Source: a bacterium
GTDB lineage: Bacteria; Patescibacteriota; Patescibacteriia; JAACEG01
Assembly: GCA_030641665.1 (NCBI GenBank)
Contig: DAOWHA010000002.1
Location: forward strand, 1-43,594
Reading direction: 5' to 3'
DNA: 43,594 bases
Shown one piece after another: positions 4,153 through 27,893 of the stretch; position 1 is the first letter of the stretch, and every line of letters starts with the position of its first letter. A program made the translations under genes and the position numbers. Below the pieces are notes generated by a model that made no database searches, was not told the origin of the DNA, and saw only the letters and a list, made by a program, of their open reading frames with translations.

Positions 4153-5232
4153 TTCAATTTAGAAGCGCAACTTTAAGTGCTATACTTAAAGTTATATGTC
4201 TAAAAAATACAAACACCTTAACCAAAAAGATCGCGACCGAATCTTTGAGTTGTTAAGGATGGGTAAAACCCAAAAAGATATTGGAAACATCATCGGTCGG
4301 CATAAATCAACTATTAGCCGCGAGTTAAACAGAAACAAGCATAAAAAACTTAAAACTTATCTTCCAGACAGCGCAGAAAAGAAAGCGGTTAAAAGAAAAA
4401 TTAAAGGTCGAAAGAGAAGTTATCTTGAAAAAGATTTTAAATTGCGAGAGTATGTCATTGAAAAACTTAAAGATGACTGGTCTCCTAAACAGATTGAAGG
4501 CAGGGTCAAAACAGAAATTGGAAAGTATATAAATTACGAAAGCATCTATCAATATATTTACAGTTTAGCAGGAAGAAAACAAAATTTAAAGCATTTTTTA
4601 AAAAAATCGCATAGAATCAGACGAAAAAAGAACAACAGGAAAATCAATAAAAGCAGAATTCTTAATCGCATTGATATTGATTTAAGGTCTAAAATAGTGG
4701 AAAAACGGAAGCAATTCGGGCATTGGGAGGGCGACAGCATGGCGTTTCAAGCTCATAAGCAACAATTAGCGACACAGACACAGAACGCAAAAGCAGGTTA
4801 ACGGTAATCCTGCGCCCGAAAGATAAAACGGCTAAATCCAAAAGTGAAATCATCAATAAATATTTCAAACGATTCCCGATTGAAGCGCGAAAAACAATGA
4901 CTTTTGACAACGGGCTGGAATTCGCGGATCATCAGGCGATAACAAAATCCATCGGAACTAAAATATTTTTCGCAAAACCTTATTCTTCGTGGCAAAGAGG
5001 AAGCAACGAGAACGGCAACGGATTGATCCGCTGGTATCTTCCGAGAAACACAGATTTAAACTCCTTAACAGATGAGCAACTTAATGCTATTATGGAATTA
5101 ATAAATAATCGTCCGAAAAAATGCCTCGGGTTTAAAACTCCTAATGAAATATTTTTAAATGAAATGAGCAAAATTTATAAATCAAAGCCTAATTTATTTA
5201 ACAGTTCGGTTGCACTTAGAAGTTGAATGTAG
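4148..5232 (+). mobile_element. IS30-family insertion sequence (~1085 bp)
   Basis: Imperfect 24-bp terminal inverted repeats: 4148-4171 CTCAATTCAATTTAGAAGCGCAAC versus reverse complement of 5209-5232 CTACATTCAACTTCTAAGTGCAAC (18/24 match), enclosing an IS30 transposase. Confidence 0.9.
4196..5226 (+). pseudogene. IS30 transposase split by a +2 frameshift near 4781
   Basis: HTH RHKSTISRELNRN; DDE motifs WEGDS / TFDNGLEF / WQRGSNENGNGLIR lie in two frames; removing CA at 4781-4782 restores LATQTERKSRLTVILRPKDKT. Confidence 0.85.
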
Positions 5233-5340: not shown

Positions 5341-5586
5341 TTATTGATGATTATTTATGTCAAAAACTACTAAAATATCATTATCAAGATATGCTAATGC
5401 CCGAAATTGCCTATTTATTCTAAAATACCAAATTCCATCTTCTTTTGGTTTTCTTTTTTTGAAATCAGTTAAATAAAAACCGCCTGCTAAAAGAAAATTT
5501 TTAGCTTTTTTATACTGCCTTAATAAGTTTCTTTTTTCTAAATATAAAACGACTTCCTTCCTTTCAACTATTCTGATTATTTTCAT
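5341..5586 (-). CDS. RelE/ParE-superfamily-like toxin of a type II TA pair
   Basis: 81-aa basic protein with FKKRKP...WYFRINRQFRAL; 4-nt ATGA overlap with upstream small gene. Confidence 0.6.
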   Translation of the reverse strand: MKIIRIVERKEVVLYLEKRNLLRQYKKAKNFLLAGGFYLTDFKKRKPKEDGIWYFRINRQFRALAYLDNDILVVFDINNHQ

Positions 5587-5783
5587 ATATTCACAAAATG
5601 TGATTGATCTAATTTTTTAGTTTCGCTTATTTTTCTCTTCATTTTAAGTGTTGTTTCTTTGTCGTCTAATTCCATTAATTTCGTAAAATAAAAATGTTTT
5701 TCCAAGTAATCTTTAAAATCTAAAATATTTTCAAATTTAGATTTTTTAATTTTAATATTTTCTTTAAATGTAATTGTAGTCAT
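5583..5783 (-). CDS. Putative antitoxin (66 aa)
   Basis: Small gene translationally coupled upstream of the RelE-like gene. Confidence 0.55.
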   Translation of the reverse strand: MTTITFKENIKIKKSKFENILDFKDYLEKHFYFTKLMELDDKETTLKMKRKISETKKLDQSHFVNI

Positions 5784-6846: not shown

Positions 6847-7033
6847 AATAAATTAAATTAATGTTTATAAACCTGTTCCAAATATAACAAATCTATTTAA
6901 AATTTTCAATACTAAAAACGGATAAAAAATTCTCAAACAAAAAACCCCGCTGCGGTTTTTACACCGCAACGGGGAATTTTTTACGATTTTGATCCACCCA
7001 AGGCGGAATAAAAGCTATCGCGAAACTTTGAGA

Positions 7034-7579
7034 TTATAAATATTTTATAAATTTTTCAATATCTTCTTTTATTAATAATCTTGTAATATTAGCATTCTTC
7101 ATTACGCCATAACTTGGTTGATGGGCAAATCCAATATATTCCACTTTTTTACCTAAACTCTTAACTTTCTTTATCGCTGGCACTAAATCTGTGTCAGATG
7201 ATATTAACACTGCTTCATCATAATAATTTTCATAAGCTCCTACAAGCAAATCAACTGCCATTTGAACATCTACGCCTTTTTCGTGATATTTGCCATTATT
7301 TTGCATTAAGTGACCTTTTTTAATAATAAAATTTCTTTTCAAATTATTAAATAACTTTCTTTGATTATTCCTAAGCGACATCCCTTTCTTATCTCTATTG
7401 TTCTTTGCCCTAATTATTCCGACATAATATCTTAATGACATTATTTTTCTATCTCTTGCTAAAAATTTACAAAAATTAAAATAATTAAAATTAATTGTAT
7501 TTTTTATATTAAGTTCCTTGTCTTTTAATTTAAAATATAAATTTCCGCCGTCAATATAAACTGCGACTTTTTTTATCAT
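7034..7579 (-). CDS. NYN-domain (LabA/DUF88, PIN-like) ribonuclease
   Basis: VYIDGGNLY, EKGVDVQMAVDL, LISSDTDLVP motifs; start moved to ATG 7579 because the longer ORF start lies inside a hairpin. Confidence 0.9.
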   Translation of the reverse strand: MIKKVAVYIDGGNLYFKLKDKELNIKNTINFNYFNFCKFLARDRKIMSLRYYVGIIRAKNNRDKKGMSLRNNQRKLFNNLKRNFIIKKGHLMQNNGKYHEKGVDVQMAVDLLVGAYENYYDEAVLISSDTDLVPAIKKVKSLGKKVEYIGFAHQPSYGVMKNANITRLLIKEDIEKFIKYL

Positions 7580-7589
7580 AACATTATTT

Positions 7590-7638
7590 AAAAAACCCAC
7601 CGGGGTTCCTCTGAAAAACAGAGGAACCAAGAGTGGGT
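7590..7638 (-). terminator. Terminator-like hairpin directly upstream of the NYN start
   Basis: Perfect 10-bp stem GGTTCCTCTG/CAGAGGAACC, outer ACCCAC/GTGGGT stem, then a U-run ending about 10 nt before the ATG. Confidence 0.7.
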
Positions 7639-7695
7639 GGTTTTAGCGAAAATAAGGAAGTTCATCCATATTATTTTCTTATTTCTAATATTATT

Positions 7696-7723
7696 ATATT
7701 AACATAAATAAAAAGTATGTCAA
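7696..7723 (-). promoter_or_regulatory. Promoter of the NYN leader
   Basis: TTGACA-tactttttatttatgt-TAATAT; nearly the same as the promoters at 23899 and 24086. Confidence 0.65.
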
Positions 7724-7886
7724 ATAAAAACCCCGCTCCGATGTTATATCGGAGCGAAAAATTTTGCCCAAGAGTTTACGAATAAAAAATTAATGCTGAT
7801 AAAAAAAGGCTCGCCCGCAATTTGCGGAACGAGCCTTTAATCTTTGCGATTTTGAAAGCTATCGCGAAACTTTGAAATTCAGATAA

Positions 7887-10800
7887 TTATCGGCTTATTG
7901 AGGAATAACTTGTTGGAATTACATCAAGATAATTTGAGTTAATTCTCAAAGTTGATGTAATACTGCCGTCATTCCAAATAATAGCGTAATTATCATCTTC
8001 GTTTGCAGCCGATGTTGTCTTAATCAAATGAGCACTTCCAGATTCTGCTTCAGCGCCTGCGTCATCAGACAATCTAGCAATAATAGAATCGTATTGCGCA
8101 GATCCACTTACTGTTCCCTGAATAACATAAGTTACAGTCTGTCCAGCAGGAATAGTATCCACTAACACGCTAGCAGATCCATCGTCTGTCTTTACTAACT
8201 GAACATCAACGGTTTCAGAAGCGCTTGTTCCGCTCCCTACTGTTAATGTTCCAGTCGTAGAAGCATTATCTATCTGGATTACATCTGTTAAAGCGGTGCT
8301 CATATCAGATTTATCATACAATTCTACATTGGTAATCTGCAAATTAGAAGTAGTGGCATTATCAGTTAAAATCATATTGGAGTTAACACCATACAATTTA
8401 ACATCATAACCAGCGTCAGCTGTAATGCTGAATTCTAATAGAGTTTTAGTTCCATCGGTTAAAGTTGCAGAAGCTGGACCGACAAAAGCAATAGTTGGCT
8501 TAGTTCTGAAAATTCTATGATCTGAACCAGTTAAATTGCTATGACCAGTTACTGAACCGCCAGAAGCAGGATTTTCATCAACTCCTGAACCGCTAGTTAC
8601 TCTAAATGTGTCAGTGGAGTTTAACCTTAAATCAATATCTATAGTATTTCCAGCCGTAGCGCCAGTCGTGACACTATTAAGATTTCCTTTTGTGGTTAAT
8701 ACGGCAGTTGCGTCTTTTGAAACATACATAGTCATTCCAGTAAAGGTTACCACATCATTAGCGAAATAACCTGTCTGGGTTCTTGTTCCAGTTTCTGTTG
8801 GGTAAGAAATTTCCAAAGATCCAAAGTTAGCGCCAGCAGTTGTGCTAAATGTTAATTTCTCAACATTAAACGATTCGTATTGTGAAGTGAAATCAAACTT
8901 GCTCATTATATTGCCAGTTGTTGCGGCAACCATTACATCGGCGGCAGGAGTGTCAGCGTTAGCTGTAATAGTCAATGTTCCGCTTGTTAATAAATCAATT
9001 TCAACATCAGAAGCATCGGTTGAAGTTGCAGGAGCAGTATCGTTTAATGTAATGTCAGTGCTATCCCAATCAGCTGAGCCAGTTGTCGCTCCGTCTTCAT
9101 CATAAACAGTTACAGTTGAGCCTTCGCTGTCAGTAGCTGTTACATTAGAAGTTGTATCAAGAGTAGCAGATCCGACTAAATCAAGTTTAACAGCATCAGT
9201 AGCCGCTAAGCTTCCTGAAACATCAATTTTAGCAATAACTTTATAACTATCACCAGCAGCAATATCAATATCCAAACCATCAAATTGAACACTTGCAGTT
9301 TTTCCAGTAGCAGCCGTTAAACTCTTCTTTACTCCACCAGTTAAAAGAACATCGCTTTGATCATACAAAGCAACAGCGCCAATAACATCTTCGGCTTCAC
9401 CAACAAGAGCAGTAGCTAATAAAGTTATAGAACTAATATTTACATCGTCCGCTCCGCCAGCTGTGAATATAATACCTAATGCTTCAACATCAGTAGCGCC
9501 TTTCACAGCGTCGGTAGACGCAGGTGTAGCAGCTAAAGCTGTTTTCAACAAAGGCGTAGCAACTGTCATTCTTTCACCAATAATGTGAGTTGATGGAACC
9601 ATAGTAGTAACACTATTACCTTCGGAATCTTCAATAACAGGTGCAACACAAGTTGCGCCATTTGAATCTCCTGCGGCAGTAGCAACATCAAGTTCAAACC
9701 AATTTCCAGAAACTGCATCACTATGAACATCAGCAGTAACCGCTAAACTTAATGTCTCTCCCGCGTTAACTTCAAAGTCATCGCTAAAATCTATTTTAAC
9801 ATAAGCAAGACTTGCATGAGTAGCATCATGCGGACCACTTAAGGTGGCGCCGGTAGAAACATTCTTAATTCTAATGTCATCAAGTAAATTCAATGCTGTA
9901 TAACTATTTGCCAATACGGCTAAATCCAAATCTTTAATAGTAATGTCGCTAACAGAAGTGATTGCGAAATTCAATAAAACAACATCATTTCCGCCATCTT
10001 TAATATCGCTAGCTACAGGGCCATTATCAGCGAAAGTAACATCTCCGCCTTGAACAGTTACAGCGTCGCCTACTCCCTTAGAATCAATAACTCTTAATCC
10101 ATAGCCGAAAGTACCACCAACGGCGTAAACATCAACTGATTCATAAACATCTAAACTAATAGTATTAGTTGGAGTAACTTTAGCACCGATATCACATTTA
10201 ATATCAAAATGCTTAGTTAAACCATCGTCAATGGTATAAGGCGAATTAAATTCAAATGATACATATTTTCCATCTTTAATTCCGTCTGCAACCTTAGTAT
10301 TAGCTTGATACATTTCAAAATTATCCAAATAAGCCATATCAGCAGTTCCAACCTGTTTCATCATTATTCTGTAAATAGTTGCTTTTTCAGTATTAGCCTG
10401 AATTGAAAACTTTTCAACTATAACTCCTTGATCGCCTAATGTTGGATTTGAAGCTGAACTTCCAGCTTGTAAAGTAACATTACCCTCAGTTTGTGCTGAA
10501 TAACTCATTGTATTTCCTGAAACAGGAAAAGAACCATTAATAGCAGCTCCGTCAGCTACAATATCAGAAGCAGCAGCGATTTTAAGCGCATGGTTTCCAG
10601 AAACTCCATCAGCACCCATTCCCCAAATGCTTAAAACTTTAGTAGAACCTTCTGGAATTTCGTAATTGATATTATTAAATTCAGCTATATTATCAGATGA
10701 ACTAATAGACTTACTTGATGTTAATCTATTTATTCCTTCATATAAATAAACTGAACTAATATCAGAAGCACTACCAACACCCTGTCTTGTTATTTTAATG

Positions 10801-22642: not shown

Positions 22643-23905
22643 TTAAATCTTGCTCTTTAAAAACTCTTTCCATTTTTTGTCACCGAGCGCTTCCGCTAAA
22701 ATAAAAATATCTTTGTCTCCTCGTCCGGATAAATTCACGACTACTGTTTTGTTTTTGCTTAATTTCGGCGCTGTTTTTATAACTTCAGCGATTGCGTGCG
22801 CAGATTCCAGCGCTGGAATAATCCCTTCTGTTTTTGCCAGCAATTTAAAAGCAGTTAAAACCTCTTTATCAGTCGCGTATTTATACTCCACCCTTCCTTT
22901 TTTAAAAAGCAGTCCGTGTTCAGGTCCAATACCAGCGTAATCCAGCCCCGCTGAAATACTGTGCGTTTTTTCCACCTGCCCGTCGCTGTCTTGCAAAAAG
23001 TAAGATTTGTATCCTTCAACCACGCCTTTTTTGATATTTTTCTGCAGCCTTGCCGCGTGTTCGCCTATTTTCGCTATGCCCTTGCCTCCCGCTTCTACGC
23101 CGATCAACTTCACGCTTTTGTCTTTTAAATACGGGTTAAAAATCCCGATGGCGTTGCTTCCGCCGCCGACACAGGCGATAATATAATCCGGCTTTTTAAT
23201 GTTATAAATATTTTTCAGTTGCTCCTTGACTTCCAATCCTACAATCGTCTGAAAATCCCTAACCATTGAAGGATACGGATGCGGACCAAGCGCGGAACCG
23301 AGCAGATAATAGGTGTCATCAACATTTGTGATCCAATCCTGCATGGTCGCCGTGACTGCGTCCTTTAATCTTTGCGTTCCATGAAACACTTGGATAACTT
23401 CCGCGCCCAGCTGTTCCATCCAAAAAACATTAGGCCTATGACGATCGTAGTCCACTTTGCCCATAAAAACAGAGCATTTAAATCCGAATTTCGCCGCCAC
23501 GGTCGCGGTTGCTAATCCGTGCTGTCCCGCGCCAGTCTCCGCGATAATCCTTTTCTTGCCCATTCTTTTCGCTAACAGCGCCTGCCCTAAAGAGTGGTTT
23601 ATCTTGTGCGCGCCAGTATGGTTTAAGCCCTCGTTTTTAATAAAAATTTTCGCTCCGCGCAAATGCTCGGTTAAATTTTTGGCAAAATAGAGCGGTGTTG
23701 GGCGGCCATCGTAATTCTGATACAGATCCATTAAATCTTTTTGAAACCGCTTGTCTTTTTTCGCTTTACTGTAAGCTGCTTCTAATTCTTCCAGCGCAGG
23801 AATCAGCATCTCTGGCGCGTACCTGCCGCCAAAATCGTTAAAATGCCCGTTTATGTCAGCATCATATTCGGTTTTGATAAAAATATTAGTAGAATCTCTT
23901 GACAT
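22643..23905 (-). CDS. trpB: Tryptophan synthase beta chain
   Basis: HTGAHKINH, ETGAGQHG, CVGGGSNAIG, SAGLDYAG, NLSGRGDKD. Confidence 0.97.
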   Translation of the reverse strand: MSRDSTNIFIKTEYDADINGHFNDFGGRYAPEMLIPALEELEAAYSKAKKDKRFQKDLMDLYQNYDGRPTPLYFAKNLTEHLRGAKIFIKNEGLNHTGAHKINHSLGQALLAKRMGKKRIIAETGAGQHGLATATVAAKFGFKCSVFMGKVDYDRHRPNVFWMEQLGAEVIQVFHGTQRLKDAVTATMQDWITNVDDTYYLLGSALGPHPYPSMVRDFQTIVGLEVKEQLKNIYNIKKPDYIIACVGGGSNAIGIFNPYLKDKSVKLIGVEAGGKGIAKIGEHAARLQKNIKKGVVEGYKSYFLQDSDGQVEKTHSISAGLDYAGIGPEHGLLFKKGRVEYKYATDKEVLTAFKLLAKTEGIIPALESAHAIAEVIKTAPKLSKNKTVVVNLSGRGDKDIFILAEALGDKKWKEFLKSKI

Positions 23906-24075
23906 ATTTTTTATTTATGATAATATATTTTGTAATGATACGAGGGTGGATGTTTATTAACAATCAAAAAACTGATCTGTTTGTATTCACCCCATCCTCG
24001 TATCTTTATTTGCTCTTTCGGGAAATCGTTCTAAACGGTTTCCCTTATTTTTTTGCTTTAAAATATGTCAAAAAT
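23899..24075 (+). ncRNA. Putative small-RNA unit 1 (promoter, stem-loop, terminator)
   Basis: TTGACA-16-TAATAT at 23899-23926; 9-bp stem 23937-45/23996-24004; terminator 24020-44 plus U-run. Confidence 0.45.
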
Positions 24076-24085
24076 CGAATTTTGC

Positions 24086-24260
24086 TTGACATATTTTTTA
24101 TTTATGATAATATTTAAGTATTCATTTCTTCTTCCTTTTTGTTAAGAAGGGGTAAATTTAAAAAGATAAAATCTTTTTACACTTTCTATTGCTCTTTATG
24201 CTAATGGAGATAGGCATCAGTTCTATCTCCTTTTCTTTTTGCCTAAAAATATGTCAAAAT
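24086..24260 (+). ncRNA. Putative small-RNA unit 2
   Basis: Identical promoter at 24086-24113; CTTCTT/AAGAAG hairpin; terminator GGAGATAG/CTATCTCC 24206-30 plus U-run. Confidence 0.45.
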
Positions 24261-24269
24261 AAATCTTGC

Positions 24270-24425
24270 TTGACATATTTTTTATTTGTATTAGTGTATT
24301 AATCATAAAGGGAGGGGTCAGAAAAATCAAAAAAATAGCTTTTTTTTAAAAATGGATTTTTACGCCCTCCCTAAAAAAACAAGTTACGAGAAGACAAAAG
24401 TCTTCTCTTTTTTTTGATTATAAAA
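24270..24425 (+). ncRNA. Putative small-RNA unit 3
   Basis: TTGACA-16-TAGTGT at 24270-97; AGGGAGGG/CCCTCCCT stem 24309-16/24365-72; terminator GAGAAGAC/GTCTTCTC 24388-24407 plus U-run. Confidence 0.45.
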
Positions 24426-24430
24426 TAGTT

Positions 24431-24565
24431 GTCTTTGCGAGGAGGCGAGCGAATGAAATGAGCGAGATGCGACGAAGCAATCTCATTAATTAAGCACGGT
24501 ACCTGAACAACGAGATTGCTTCGTCGCACTTCTCTCGCTACGCTCGTTCGCCTCCTCGCAAAGAC
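24431..24565. repeat. Palindromic REP/RPE-like element, copy E (overlaps the trpF 3' end)
   Basis: Same termini; supplies the last codons (SLRGGERA) and stop of trpF. Confidence 0.9.
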
Positions 24566-25200
24566 AGAATAAACTTTTTCATTTTTGCTTTACTTTTTTT
24601 ACCCGGATATTTTTCAATTCCGCTTGCGGCATCTATTATAGCAGGATTTAATTTTTTAACATACTCTTGAACATTTTCAGGATTTAATCCGCCAGCTAAA
24701 ATCAGCTGGTATTTTTTTTTCTGTAAAATTTTAAACAGTTCAAAATCCTGAAAATTATACTGTTTGCGTTTTGCGCTAATTTTATCCTCAGCGCTGGATG
24801 CGTCTATTAAAAATTTATCAATCTTGCCTCTGAATTTTTCAATTTCACTTAATGATTTTTTTAAATCGCCTGTTAGCTTAAACGCTTTCCAAACTTCAAT
24901 CTGTTTTTTATATTTATCGCAAAATTCAGGTGTTTCATCTCCGTGAAACTGTAAAATGCCGACTAATCCGCTTGTTAATAGCATATCTATTTTTTTCTCT
25001 GGCATATTCACGACAACTGCAACTATTTTAAAACGCTTTTTTTCTTCTTTAATATTCTGAACTATATTTATAAATTTTTCAATAGAAACGCTTCGCGGGC
25101 TTTTTGGAAAATCGACCACAAAACCGAGATAATCAATGTTTAAACTAATGGCATCTCGCGCGTCTTCTAAATTTGTTATTCCGCAAAATTTAATTTTCAT
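24538..25200 (-). CDS. trpF: Phosphoribosylanthranilate isomerase
   Basis: KIKFCGIT, SPRSV, LQFHGDETP, ILAGGLNPENV, DAASGIE. Confidence 0.92.
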   Translation of the reverse strand: MKIKFCGITNLEDARDAISLNIDYLGFVVDFPKSPRSVSIEKFINIVQNIKEEKKRFKIVAVVVNMPEKKIDMLLTSGLVGILQFHGDETPEFCDKYKKQIEVWKAFKLTGDLKKSLSEIEKFRGKIDKFLIDASSAEDKISAKRKQYNFQDFELFKILQKKKYQLILAGGLNPENVQEYVKKLNPAIIDAASGIEKYPGKKSKAKMKKFILSLRGGERA

Positions 25201-26614: not shown

Positions 26615-27518
26615 ATTTTTTAAAAAATTTATCCCTGTAATGCTCTCTTCTGTCGTTGCTGTGGAATTTTAGCATTTTATCATTGATGATTACCCGCGTA
26701 TCTCTGTTTGCCATTGCGCGCAATTTTGGAGATAAAATTTTTAACTGAATTTTTTTTGCCAATCTTTCTAAAAAATCAAAATTATACAAAAAAGACAGCG
26801 ACGACATAAAAGTAATTCTCTGCTTTTTATCTAAGATTATCGGCTGAAAATTCGGCAAATGTTTTTTTATCCAACTGTTCGCGGATCTGAATTTTTCATA
26901 AATTTTATCTTTATTATAAATCGGAAAAATTGTTGCGAGCCAATAATAAAAATAGATGTCGTTTTTATCTAACGCGATATTTTTCAAATCTAAATTATCC
27001 TCGCTGATAAAAAAAGTCAGGCAAATTTTATCTTTTATATTTTTCTCTGTCGGACGCAATCCGAACAGCTGGCAAATTCCAGCGCAAATCATTCTTGTGA
27101 GCCAAATCCGATTTTTTTTTGTAATAATAAACAGGTCAATATCGCTATTTTTTCTCGCGTTATTGCTCGGCATAAAATTCACAACAGCCGCCATTTTAAT
27201 AAAAGAAAAAATAGTAAATATCCTGATTGCGAATTTCGCTTTTCTAAATTTTTTAATGCTTTGCGAATTTCGCTTTTCGCGGATTTTAATAATCTCCTTG
27301 CGTCCGCGCAAAAAATAAAAGTTATTTTTCTTTTCTATTTTATCGCTTAAAATTCCGCTTGCTAAAATTTTTTTAATATTTTCTAAACCGCAATCATCGC
27401 TGTTAAATCCGTCTTGAAAATAACAAAATCGCCAAATCTCATTTTCCGTAAGCGGATAATCAAACAGATCAAAAAAAACAACAGACGAAATTATCGCTTT
27501 TTGTAAAACTATTGACAT
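26607..27518 (-). CDS. Pol-beta-like nucleotidyltransferase-family protein
   Basis: FDLFDYPLT N-terminus; NNARKNSDIDLFII; KICLTFFISED. Confidence 0.6.
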   Translation of the reverse strand: MSIVLQKAIISSVVFFDLFDYPLTENEIWRFCYFQDGFNSDDCGLENIKKILASGILSDKIEKKNNFYFLRGRKEIIKIREKRNSQSIKKFRKAKFAIRIFTIFSFIKMAAVVNFMPSNNARKNSDIDLFIITKKNRIWLTRMICAGICQLFGLRPTEKNIKDKICLTFFISEDNLDLKNIALDKNDIYFYYWLATIFPIYNKDKIYEKFRSANSWIKKHLPNFQPIILDKKQRITFMSSLSFLYNFDFLERLAKKIQLKILSPKLRAMANRDTRVIINDKMLKFHSNDRREHYRDKFFKKYV

Positions 27519-27680
27519 ATTTTTTATTTATAGTTTAATAATCATATACCTCCCAAGCAACGGAGGTTCAGGTATTAACCTCTCCTATGCGCGAGGAGAG
27601 AACCCCCATATCTACACAGCAATTAGTAGCCAAAAAACGGGCGAAAAGGCGAAAGATGTAGATATTGGGGGATTTTTTTT
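27512..27680 (+). ncRNA. Putative small-RNA (or 24-aa peptide) unit 4
   Basis: TTGACA-16-TTTAAT; hairpins 27548-67 and 27580-600; terminal stem 27603-16/27657-71 plus U-run; ORF 27587-27661 MREERTPISTQQLVAKKRAKRRKM. Confidence 0.4.
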
Positions 27681-27692
27681 GAAAAATAAACT

Positions 27693-27858
27693 GTCTTTGC
27701 GAGGAGCTGAATAAGCGTAGCGAGTGAGGCGCGACGAAGCAATCTCGTTAATAGACAAACAAAATTATAATTATAGATTTGTTCGCTTAGTAATGGGATT
27801 GCTTCGCTCCGTTGCACTCCGCTCGCAAAGACAGAATATTATAATTCCTCGCAAAGAC
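27693..27858. repeat. Palindromic REP/RPE-like element, copy F (27693-27832), plus a duplicated right end (27847-27858)
   Basis: Same termini; extra CCTCGCAAAGAC 14 nt downstream. Confidence 0.9.
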
Positions 27859-27893
27859 AGAAATAAAAAAACTCCGCTAATAAAAAAATTGAT

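What the first reader, a model, noticed from the sequence alone, without database searches (positions are those of the whole stretch)
7034..7723. NYN RNase laid out like a type III (RNA-antitoxin) toxin-antitoxin locus
Seen: promoter (7696-7723), ~50-nt leader, strong hairpin with U-run (7590-7638), then the NYN start. Established: ToxIN-type and AbiF-type systems use promoter, short RNA, terminator, RNase gene. Inference: the ~100-nt leader may be an RNA antitoxin for a PIN-like NYN nuclease, a nuclease family I do not know as a type III toxin. The promoter is almost identical to those of the small-RNA units at 23.9-24.4 kb.
Basis: partly seen in the sequence, partly recalled or inferred. Interest (0 to 1): 0.62.

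Follow-up and report, generated by a model that had tools for sequence, protein, structure and literature searches.

The report
Conserved leader RNA before NYN nuclease
A small RNA-cutting enzyme gene (NYN family) in this ultra-small bacterium sits behind a strong promoter and a conserved RNA hairpin that looks like a stop signal, a layout kept in essentially every relative examined and absent from the RNA databases and papers I could search; the hairpin most likely keeps the nuclease in check, but that is untested.

Summary
A near-consensus promoter (7723-7696) is followed by a ~50-nt leader, a -28 kcal/mol hairpin plus U6 (7638-7590), and 11 nt later the ATG (7579) of a 181-aa NYN/PF01936 protein with an intact active site.

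The layout is conserved. All intact orthologues examined across Patescibacteria (about 45 protein-anchored loci) have promoter, 5' tail RCUAAAAC, hairpin and U-run. Another 58 were found RNA-first in metagenome contigs.

The hairpin resembles the local A-tract/U-tract terminators but has one extra hallmark. A pyrimidine-pyrimidine or C·A mismatch lies 7 bp above the stem base in 38/38 aligned leaders. Only 3/70 strong hairpin-plus-U-run sites genome-wide have that shape.

It has no Rfam match, and I found no paper describing it.

It is not a classical type III toxin-antitoxin system: there are no tandem repeats, and the fold is NYN, not ToxN. The closest published layout is AbiF/RCd22.

My best reading (about 0.4) is that the leader is the nuclease's dedicated control RNA, acting as attenuator and probable NYN ligand. 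A purely cis attenuator is the main rival. The promoter's likeness to the 23.9-24.4 kb units only reflects the genome's general strong-promoter consensus. Nothing here tests toxicity or RNA-protein binding.

The parts
7696..7723 (-). Sigma-70-type promoter: TTGACA (7723-7718), 16-nt spacer preceded by TG, TAATAT (7701-7696). Predicted transcription start near 7689.
   Evidence: 10/12 match. Exact TTGACA is kept in 24/28 class-level orthologues and in 48/66 unique metagenome leaders.
7648..7689 (-). 5' extension of the leader (about 42 nt, with a small AU hairpin at 7678-7648). It is specific to a subset of relatives (L001-L003, L031, L183). Most relatives start 7-8 nt before the CUAAAAC tail.
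   Evidence: Fold. Comparison of upstream regions. Spacing statistics.
7639..7647 (-). Conserved single-stranded tail GCUAAAACC directly 5' of the hairpin (A-tract).
   Evidence: Alignments A1 and A3: CTAAaacC is conserved. In 52/62 short-leader loci it lies 7-8 nt after the -10 hexamer. Ordinary terminators of the class also carry an A-tract here.
7590..7638 (-). Leader hairpin (7638-7595; 7-bp GC lower stem, internal loop, 10-bp upper stem) plus U-run (to 7590). It has the shape of an intrinsic terminator and carries the family's conserved non-Watson-Crick interruption 7 bp above the base.
   Evidence: -28.1 kcal/mol. Covariation: 83.8% of cells paired, 11/14 pairs with double changes. CM R1 scores 46.4 bits here and 24 bits for the next hit in the genome. 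The mismatch column is never Watson-Crick in 38/38 leaders, against 3/70 background hairpins with that shape.
7034..7579 (-). NYN (PF01936, LabA/DUF88-like) nuclease gene, 181 aa, ATG at 7579, stop at 7036-7034. Catalytic D10, N13, D104, D131 are invariant in both alignments; D129 and E100 are invariant in the 28 orthologues and at least 90% conserved in the second set.
   Evidence: AlphaFold pLDDT 91. Best structural matches are 2QIP and the MARF1 NYN domain. PADLOC HEC-09, E = 1.8e-21.
6945..6974 (-). Intrinsic terminator closing the cassette (perfect 12-bp stem plus U6).
7011..7035 (.). Right copy of a 25-nt direct repeat (3' box) bracketing the cassette.
   Evidence: D2, 96% identity to 7855-7879. 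The 20-nt core occurs only at these two places in the 1.01-Mb genome.
7855..7879 (.). Left copy of the 25-nt direct repeat, just after the stop codon of the upstream surface-protein gene.
   Evidence: The adjoining terminator and -35 region are also duplicated (D1, D3, D4).

Best explanation
The region 7011-7879 is a self-contained accessory cassette. A strong constitutive promoter fires directly into a dedicated leader RNA whose 3' part is a terminator-shaped hairpin.

Most transcripts should end there, giving an RNA of about 100 nt here and about 50 nt in most relatives. Only read-through transcripts carry the NYN ribonuclease reading frame, which starts 11 nt after the U-run.

I propose that the leader is the nuclease's own control RNA with two roles:
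- It throttles NYN synthesis in cis by premature termination.
- Through its conserved tail and its conserved mismatch 7 bp above the stem base, it is recognised by the NYN protein. The abundant short RNA would then buffer or neutralise the enzyme, in the manner shown for RCd22 and AbiF in Clostridioides difficile and, more loosely, for type III antitoxins.

What is shown: the anatomy, its conservation and covariation, its specificity to NYN genes, and the intact catalytic site. What is inferred: termination in vivo, NYN toxicity, and NYN-RNA binding.
For: 1. Every intact orthologue examined keeps promoter, tail, hairpin and U-run.
- 28 loci from 401 genomes of the class.
- 12 of 14 independent Patescibacteria loci (Saccharibacteria, Kuenen-, Gottesman-, Nomura- and Paceibacteria). 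The other two are NYN pseudogenes, one with the leader intact and one with its 5' arm.
- 3 further contigs.

2. The stem shows compensatory changes: 11 of 14 pairs change on both sides, and 83.8% of cells are paired against 67% in shuffles.

3. The covariance model finds one strong copy in this genome (46 bits, next 24). In 401 genomes every hit above 35.4 bits lies in front of an NYN gene, though the model was trained on those leaders.

4. An RNA-first pattern scan of metagenome contigs gave 80 loci.
- 58 of 77 assessable loci have the orthologous NYN gene next.
- 4 have NYN remnants.
- 2 have NYN-domain proteins only 23% identical to this one. That is far more than chance for a domain present 4 times in this genome.

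5. The mismatch column is non-Watson-Crick in 38/38 leaders (C·C in 23). Only 3/70 strong hairpin-plus-U4 sites genome-wide have 6-7 bp followed by a 1x1 loop, and 22/70 are perfect stems.

6. An exact TTGACA -35 is kept in 24/28 and 48/66 leaders, and the -10 to tail spacing is fixed at 7-8 nt in 52/62. This is hard to explain if only low expression were wanted.

7. No protein partner is conserved and neighbours vary.

8. The distribution is patchy, about 10% of genomes, and the protein resembles the defence candidate HEC-09.

9. There is a published precedent for a non-repeat leader RNA with a terminator that acts in cis and in trans on a toxin: PMC12373285.
Against: - No experiment or usable RNA-seq bears on it.
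- The hairpin with its A-tract and U-tract is otherwise built like ordinary gene-end terminators of this class, which score 33-35 bits with the model.
- The same leader type occasionally precedes non-NYN genes: a solo PemK gene, a 23S_rRNA_IVP protein, a Translin-family protein and two unknown proteins. It can therefore serve, or at least survive, as a generic 5' module.
- No orphan copies in the 401 genomes and no copies in viral contigs were found.
- The leader has no tandem repeats.
- HEC-09, the nearest tested relative, gave no phage defence (10.1101/2024.01.29.577857).
Confidence: 0.4

Rival explanations
1. Pure cis attenuator or insulator. The hairpin is simply a strong intrinsic terminator placed between promoter and gene so that a potentially harmful nuclease is made only at a trickle, or only when termination is relieved. 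It would also block read-through from whatever host gene the cassette has landed in. The short RNA has no function of its own and NYN does not recognise it.
For: - The hairpin has the canonical terminator shape with an A-tract and a U-tract like ordinary terminators of the class.
- The module is also found before PemK, IVP, Translin-family and unknown genes.
- There are no orphan or phage copies.
- Cassettes sit inside or next to transcribed host genes: wzt fragment, tRNA, surface-protein gene.
- The U-run is short, with a median of 4 uninterrupted U, which fits partial termination.
Against: - It does not explain the mismatch kept at a fixed height in 38/38 leaders against about 4% in background hairpins.
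- It does not explain selection for a consensus -35 and a fixed start-to-hairpin spacing.
- It does not explain why two NYN families only 23% identical to this one carry the same leader.
- A weak promoter would give low expression more simply.
- There is no room for an alternative antiterminator fold in the short-leader forms.
Confidence: 0.3
2. Autoregulatory operator. NYN is not a toxin but an RNase that binds or cuts the hairpin region of its own mRNA leader to hold its level constant, as RNase III, RNase E and PNPase do with hairpins in their own 5' untranslated regions (from general knowledge). The terminated short RNA would be a by-product.
For: - The leader-NYN linkage is tight and both co-diverge.
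- The conserved mismatch and tail could be a recognition or cleavage site.
- The hairpin ends 8-50 nt before the start codon, where a bound protein could block initiation.
Against: - A patchy, cassette-like distribution in about 10% of genomes, with flanking repeats, is not what a homeostatic housekeeping RNase shows.
- The conserved U-run is not needed for an operator.
- The operon-embedded NYN paralogues of this genome lack the leader.
Confidence: 0.2
3. DNA-level element. The hairpin acts as a recombination or attachment site at the 5' boundary of small mobile cassettes (integron attC-like or transposon-end-like). Its link with NYN would reflect only which cassettes are common.
For: - The leader lies at cassette junctions. 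In L101 a wzt 5' fragment, promoter and hairpin are duplicated before two different genes.
- Different genes follow the same leader type.
- Direct repeats bracket the cassette here.
Against: - The flanks CTAAAAC and GTTTTT do not fit the attC core sites RYYYAAC and GTTRRRY (checked by eye against the consensus from general knowledge).
- The element is always co-oriented with a consensus promoter at a fixed 7-8 nt spacing and is followed by a U-run. These are features of a transcript.
- The repeats that bracket the cassette in this window lie elsewhere (7011-7035 and 7855-7879), not at the hairpin.
Confidence: 0.05

Closest known systems
AbiF_Cd / RCd22 of Clostridioides difficile prophage phi027 (abiF motif, Rfam RF03085; PLoS Genet 2025, PMC12373285)
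   Same: A SigA-type promoter drives a structured non-coding leader that ends in a Rho-independent terminator. The toxin gene is co-transcribed only by read-through and there is no separate promoter. In that system the RNA represses in cis (17-fold) and neutralises the protein in trans by direct binding. The layout here is the same.
   Different: The protein there is Abi_2/AbiD/F (HEPN-like, Cas13-related), not NYN. RCd22 carries two abiF motifs upstream of the terminator, whereas here the conserved element is the terminator-shaped hairpin itself with a short tail. No abiF or other Rfam match was found here. Nothing is shown experimentally for NYN.
Classical type III toxin-antitoxin / abortive-infection systems (ToxIN, CptIN, TenpIN)
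   Same: The order is promoter, RNA, terminator, then endoribonuclease gene, and the terminator sets the RNA:protein ratio (from general knowledge of these systems).
   Different: Those antitoxins are tandem arrays of 34-45-nt repeats cut by the toxin into pseudoknot units. Here there is a single non-repeated hairpin. Those toxins share the ToxN/AbiQ fold, whereas this is an NYN/PIN-like metal-dependent nuclease.
HEC-09, an NYN-domain defence candidate embedded in Hma systems (Payne et al., bioRxiv 10.1101/2024.01.29.577857)
   Same: It is a single-gene NYN protein of similar size. This protein matches the PADLOC HEC-09 model at E = 1.8e-21 over residues 3-147.
   Different: HEC-09 gave no protection against the phages tested, and no leader RNA is mentioned. 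I could not inspect its upstream region.
LabA-like NYN proteins (PF01936; structure 2QIP, VPA0982 of Vibrio parahaemolyticus) and the MARF1 NYN domain (5YAA)
   Same: The fold is the same (Foldseek E = 8e-10 and 5e-6) and the acidic active-site residues are conserved.
   Different: The function of the bacterial members is unknown. I found no description of an associated leader RNA.

Membership tests
NYN domain nucleases (Pfam PF01936, LabA/DUF88-like) | Significant match to the family profile over the whole domain | tested here: met
   E = 2.3e-22, 80.5 bits against a cut-off of 24.2; residues 4-154 against profile positions 1-128 of 145.
NYN domain nucleases (Pfam PF01936, LabA/DUF88-like) | PIN-like alpha/beta fold with a conserved acidic metal-binding pocket | tested here: met
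   Model pLDDT 91. Top structural matches are 2QIP and the MARF1 NYN domain. D10, N13, E100, D104, D129 and D131 are invariant in 28 orthologues; in a second set of 26, D10, N13, D104 and D131 are invariant and E100 and D129 at least 90% conserved.
Type III toxin-antitoxin systems (ToxIN/CptIN/TenpIN) | RNA antitoxin made of tandem direct repeats (about 34-45 nt units) | tested here: not met
   The only repeat in 7500-7900 is a low-complexity TATTATAT run with score 31. Each of the roughly 45 related loci has a single hairpin.
Type III toxin-antitoxin systems (ToxIN/CptIN/TenpIN) | Toxin of the ToxN/AbiQ endoribonuclease fold | tested here: not met
   NYN/PIN-like fold.
Type III toxin-antitoxin systems (ToxIN/CptIN/TenpIN) | Promoter, then RNA, then intrinsic terminator, then toxin gene with no promoter of its own | tested here: met
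   Only 11 nt separate the U-run from the ATG.
Type III toxin-antitoxin systems (ToxIN/CptIN/TenpIN) | Toxin is growth-inhibitory, and the RNA binds and neutralises it and is processed by it | not testable with these tools
AbiF/RCd22-type leader-RNA-controlled toxins | abiF RNA motif (RF03085) in the leader and an Abi_2 family protein | tested here: not met
   No RF03085 match even at E <= 10. The protein is NYN. Only the layout is shared.
Intrinsic (Rho-independent) terminator used as a 5' attenuator | GC-rich stem directly followed by a U-run, downstream of a promoter and upstream of the reading frame | tested here: met
   7-bp GC lower stem abutting U6, -28.1 kcal/mol. The same holds in all relatives. 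Termination itself was not measured.
Intrinsic (Rho-independent) terminator used as a 5' attenuator | Alternative antiterminator structure or ligand-binding aptamer (riboswitch, T-box or leader-peptide type) | tested here: not met
   In short-leader relatives only 8-10 nt precede the stem. No leader peptide is conserved: the 8-codon frame here has a premature stop in L002 and is absent in L004. There is no Rfam match.
Integron attC recombination sites | Core sites RYYYAAC and GTTRRRY at the base of an imperfect hairpin at the cassette 3' end | tested here: not met
   The flanks are CTAAAAC and GTTTTTW, read from alignment A3 and compared by eye with the consensus from general knowledge. The element follows a promoter at fixed spacing.

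The most novel reading that the evidence does not exclude
The NYN leader hairpin and the NYN nuclease form an undescribed, widespread class of RNA-protein toxin-antitoxin-like or abortive-infection module. A single non-repeated hairpin would serve at once as the transcription terminator that sets its own excess over the nuclease mRNA and as the specific RNA ligand that holds a PIN-like metallonuclease inactive until transcription of the host is shut off. Recognition would go through the conserved pyrimidine-pyrimidine mismatch and the 5' tail.
Probability: 0.2. Interest if true: 0.8.

Novelty: new variant of a known kind. Interest (0 to 1): 0.6.

Why it matters
NYN/LabA-like proteins are among the commonest uncharacterised predicted RNases in bacteria. 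In candidate-phyla-radiation (CPR) genomes they travel as tiny solo cassettes.

A dedicated, conserved leader RNA gives a concrete and testable handle on how such a nuclease is kept harmless. It would also add a PIN-like enzyme family to the short list of protein toxins controlled by RNA (ToxN-type, AbiF).

The element is absent from Rfam 15 and could be added as a family. It would also help annotation, because gene callers currently extend the NYN reading frame into the hairpin (TTG at 7630).

If instead it is only an attenuator, it is still a clear natural example of a 'strong promoter plus terminator' gate on an accessory nuclease gene.

Tried and rejected
- **Rfam:** gathering thresholds on the whole window gave only four tRNAs. 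E-value mode on 7500-7900 gave only chance-level hits.

- **RNA evidence:**
  - Only DNA runs from cold-seep metagenomes hold the window.
  - One biogas RNA run holds contigs of a 93-95% relative of L183. These span the promoter, leader and 5' part of NYN and include DNA upstream of the promoter, so they say nothing about a short RNA.

- **Phage copies:** a pattern scan of viral contigs found none. The phage collection held only one distant NYN hit.

- **'No ribosome-binding site' as a control feature:** rejected. SD-like motifs precede only 7% of ORFs of at least 150 aa genome-wide and 2/28 NYN orthologues, so this is normal here. My first window for that count was wrong and was corrected.

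- **Leader peptide:** the 8-codon frame MDELPYFR in the leader is not conserved.

- **Promoter identity with the 23.9-24.4 kb units as a functional link:** rejected as generic.

- **Terminators downstream of orthologous NYN genes as a control set:** too few were found. I replaced this with a genome-wide set.

- **Genome-wide scan for promoter-plus-terminator units:** the output was noisy. It showed a few other such units, but none similar to this one.

- **Whether the PemK family generally carries this leader:** it does not. Contexts vary.

- **Literature:** I found no paper linking NYN to type III systems, leader RNAs or structured RNA motifs.

Full report
**Observation**

On the minus strand the window reads as follows.
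- TTGACA at 7723-7718, a 16-nt spacer with TG before the second hexamer, then TAATAT at 7701-7696.
- A leader of about 50 nt.
- The tail GCUAAAACC at 7647-7639.
- A hairpin at 7638-7595 with a 7-bp GC lower stem, a 3x2 internal loop, a 10-bp upper stem and a U5 loop.
- A U-run to 7590, then 10 more bases, then ATG at 7579.

The 121-nt leader folds at -40.3 kcal/mol with z = -6.0 against shuffles. The hairpin alone is -28.1 kcal/mol.

The mechanical ORF list starts the frame at a TTG inside the hairpin (7630). The Pfam NYN profile, however, begins at residue 4 of the ATG-7579 protein (E = 2.3e-22), and all orthologues start there. The gene ends at 7034 and is followed by its own terminator at 6974-6945.

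**The promoter likeness**

The 28-nt promoter matches the units at 23899 and 24086 in 26/28 positions. The same motif, with 5 or fewer mismatches, occurs 15 times in the 1.01-Mb genome. It lies in front of a tRNA, ordinary protein genes with strong Shine-Dalgarno sites, and other RNA-like units. It is the organism's strong-promoter consensus and not a special link.

**Conservation**

The genome belongs to Patescibacteria; its genus-mate is titled 'Patescibacteria group bacterium'. The genome is 34% G+C.

- In 401 genomes of the class, 42 carry a homologue at E <= 1e-12. The distribution is patchy, usually one copy per genome.
- I extracted the upstream regions of 28 loci at 30-90% protein identity. 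All show TTGACA-N16-18-TAnnnT, a short gap, a tail (RCUAAAAC in the nearer clade; UAUGAUC, UUAAUCCC or UUAACC in more distant clades), a GC-rich hairpin with a tetraloop, a U-run, and the ATG 8-50 nt later.
- Fourteen independent loci from Saccharibacteria, Kuenen-, Gottesman-, Nomura- and Paceibacteria show the same. Two of them are NYN pseudogenes: one has the leader intact, and in the other a deletion fuses the hairpin's 5' arm to codon 39.
- Three contigs fetched through protein clusters agree.
- The NYN paralogues of this genome that sit inside operons lack the element.
- Distant plasmid-borne NYN genes of Carboxydocella, Leptospira and Alkalihalophilus also have a promoter, a structured leader and a hairpin with a U-rich tail. 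The sequences there are unrelated.

**Structure and specificity of the RNA**

- On a MAFFT alignment of 26 leaders, 83.8% of cells in the proposed 14-pair helix are paired, against 67% in shuffles and 38-50% when the 3' partners are slid by 1-3 columns. Eleven pairs change on both sides.
- A covariance model (R1) finds one strong copy in the own genome: 46.4 bits, with the next hit at 24.3 bits.
- In 401 genomes every hit above 35.4 bits precedes an NYN gene. That is by construction for the training loci.
- The 33-35-bit hits are ordinary gene-end terminators with an A-tract and a U-tract. The leader hairpin is therefore built like the local terminators.
- On loci not used for training, R1 hits 10 of 14 directly upstream of NYN.

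One feature sets it apart from ordinary terminators. In the model-based alignment of 38 leaders, the column pair 7 bp above the stem base is never Watson-Crick: C·C 23, C·A 6, C·U 5, U·C 2, U·U 2. Among 70 strong hairpin-plus-U4 sites in this genome, only 3 have 6-7 pairs followed by a 1x1 loop, and 22 are perfect stems. In this window the interruption is a 3x2 loop at the same height.

**RNA-first test**

A degenerate pattern for tail plus stem found 112 stretches in metagenome contigs, of which 80 were returned. Of 77 loci with enough downstream sequence:
- 58 have the orthologous NYN gene next.
- 4 have NYN remnants.
- 2 have PF01936 proteins only 23% identical to this one.
- The rest are eight near-identical contigs with a 23S_rRNA_IVP protein, one Translin-family protein, three contigs with unknown proteins (two distinct contexts) and one alaS without a promoter.

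In one contig (L101) a second, slightly degraded copy of the leader precedes a solo PemK gene. Both copies are preceded by a duplicated 5' fragment of the neighbouring wzt gene. PemK homologues in general do not carry the leader.

Across 66 unique leaders:
- The -35 is an exact TTGACA in 48.
- The -10 hexamer ends 7-8 nt before the tail in 52 of 62.
- The uninterrupted U-run has a median of 4.

About a fifth lack a -35 within 45 nt of the tail and may be of the long-leader form seen in this window; L183 is an example.

**The protein**

D10, N13, D104 and D131 are invariant in both alignments (28 and 26 sequences). E100 and D129 are invariant in the first and at least 90% conserved in the second. 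The AlphaFold model (pLDDT 91) matches 2QIP and the MARF1 NYN domain. PADLOC places it with HEC-09 (E = 1.8e-21). HEC-09 is a single-gene NYN defence candidate that gave no protection in the one published test. No neighbouring protein is conserved.

**The cassette**

A 25-nt direct repeat (7011-7035 and 7855-7879) brackets the unit, and its core occurs nowhere else in the genome. The adjoining terminator and -35 region are also duplicated. In L004 partial tRNA copies flank the unit. The gene therefore travels as a small accessory cassette.

**Mechanism**

What is shown:
- A consensus promoter fires into a terminator-shaped hairpin that is specific to, and co-inherited with, NYN genes.
- The hairpin carries a conserved non-canonical interruption.
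- There is no room for an alternative antiterminator fold in the short forms.
- The enzyme's active site is intact.

From this I infer the following.
- Most transcripts stop at the U-run, so a short RNA is in excess over NYN mRNA.
- The conserved tail and mismatch mark a protein recognition site. NYN is the only candidate that is always present.

My best reading (0.4) is a leader RNA that controls NYN in cis by attenuation and probably also by binding it, as shown for RCd22 and AbiF (PMC12373285).

The rivals are:
- A pure cis attenuator or insulator (0.3). It is favoured by the terminator-like build, the non-NYN contexts and the lack of orphan or phage copies.
- An autoregulatory operator of a non-toxic RNase (0.2).
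- A DNA-level recombination site (0.05).

**Comparison and novelty**

It fails two defining features of classical type III systems: repeats and the ToxN fold. It also lacks the abiF motif. It therefore works like those systems at most and is not a member.

I found no Rfam family and no paper describing an NYN leader RNA. Earlier notes of this scan report the same pairing in other genomes. I used them as leads only. One of them led me to the AbiF paper, and another had its toxin-antitoxin reading later re-rated at 6/100, which tempers my odds.

I class it as a new variant of a known kind, namely leader-RNA-gated toxin-like genes, with interest 0.6.

Noticed in passing
window 23899-24420 (+): Three tandem units, each with the strong consensus promoter, a structured RNA of 60-130 nt and a terminator. 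No ORF and no Rfam match. They lie in the gap between two minus-strand genes.
   Followed up: partly
window 24423-24563: A long, nearly perfect inverted repeat with arms of about 55 bp, directly after the third small-RNA-like unit and overlapping the 3' end of the gene at 24538-25200.
   Followed up: no
window 27512-27890 (+): The same strong promoter is followed by about 370 nt without an ORF between two minus-strand genes. A structured, GC-richer start suggests an unannotated RNA. No Rfam match at E <= 1 apart from chance-level miRNA hits.
   Followed up: partly
window 6918-7035 and 7708-7879: The 3' box, terminator and -35 region after the surface-protein gene are repeated after the NYN gene (pieces at 71-96% identity). 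The intergenic spacers of this cassette array therefore share ancestry.
   Followed up: partly
L101 5760-7480: The NYN gene and a solo PemK/MazF-like gene are each preceded by a duplicated 5' fragment of the adjacent wzt ABC-transporter gene plus promoter plus leader hairpin. A sister contig (L102) has only the NYN unit. This looks like serial insertion at one site in the 5' part of wzt.
   Followed up: partly
L004 (G012:C2) flanks of the NYN gene: An approximately 80-nt partial copy of a tRNA gene lies upstream of the cassette, and the full tRNA lies downstream. This is an integration-scar pattern without an integrase in the unit.
   Followed up: no
G000 C25:21194, C18:12182, C24:12894: A recurring hairpin, GGTTCCATAGTCC...GGCTGTGGAACC plus a U-run, lies downstream of promoter-like sites at three places in the genome. 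It may be another small RNA or repeat family.
   Followed up: no
G000 C1:251-604 and 31 other genomes of the class: PemK/MazF-like genes occur in about 8% of class genomes, mostly without a recognisable upstream antitoxin gene. Some directly follow a hairpin plus U-run.
   Followed up: partly
whole genome G000: Shine-Dalgarno-like 4-mers precede only about 7% of ORFs of at least 150 aa (crude first-ATG rule), although a few genes behind the strong promoter have perfect AAGGAGG sites.
   Followed up: partly
window 4196-5226 (+) and 5341-5783 (-): A transposase-like gene with an HTH_38 domain is split into two frames (4196-4801 and 4897-5226). Next to it is a small two-gene pair with an overlapping stop and start behind a perfect consensus promoter at 5839-5812. 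Neither small protein has a Pfam match.
   Followed up: no
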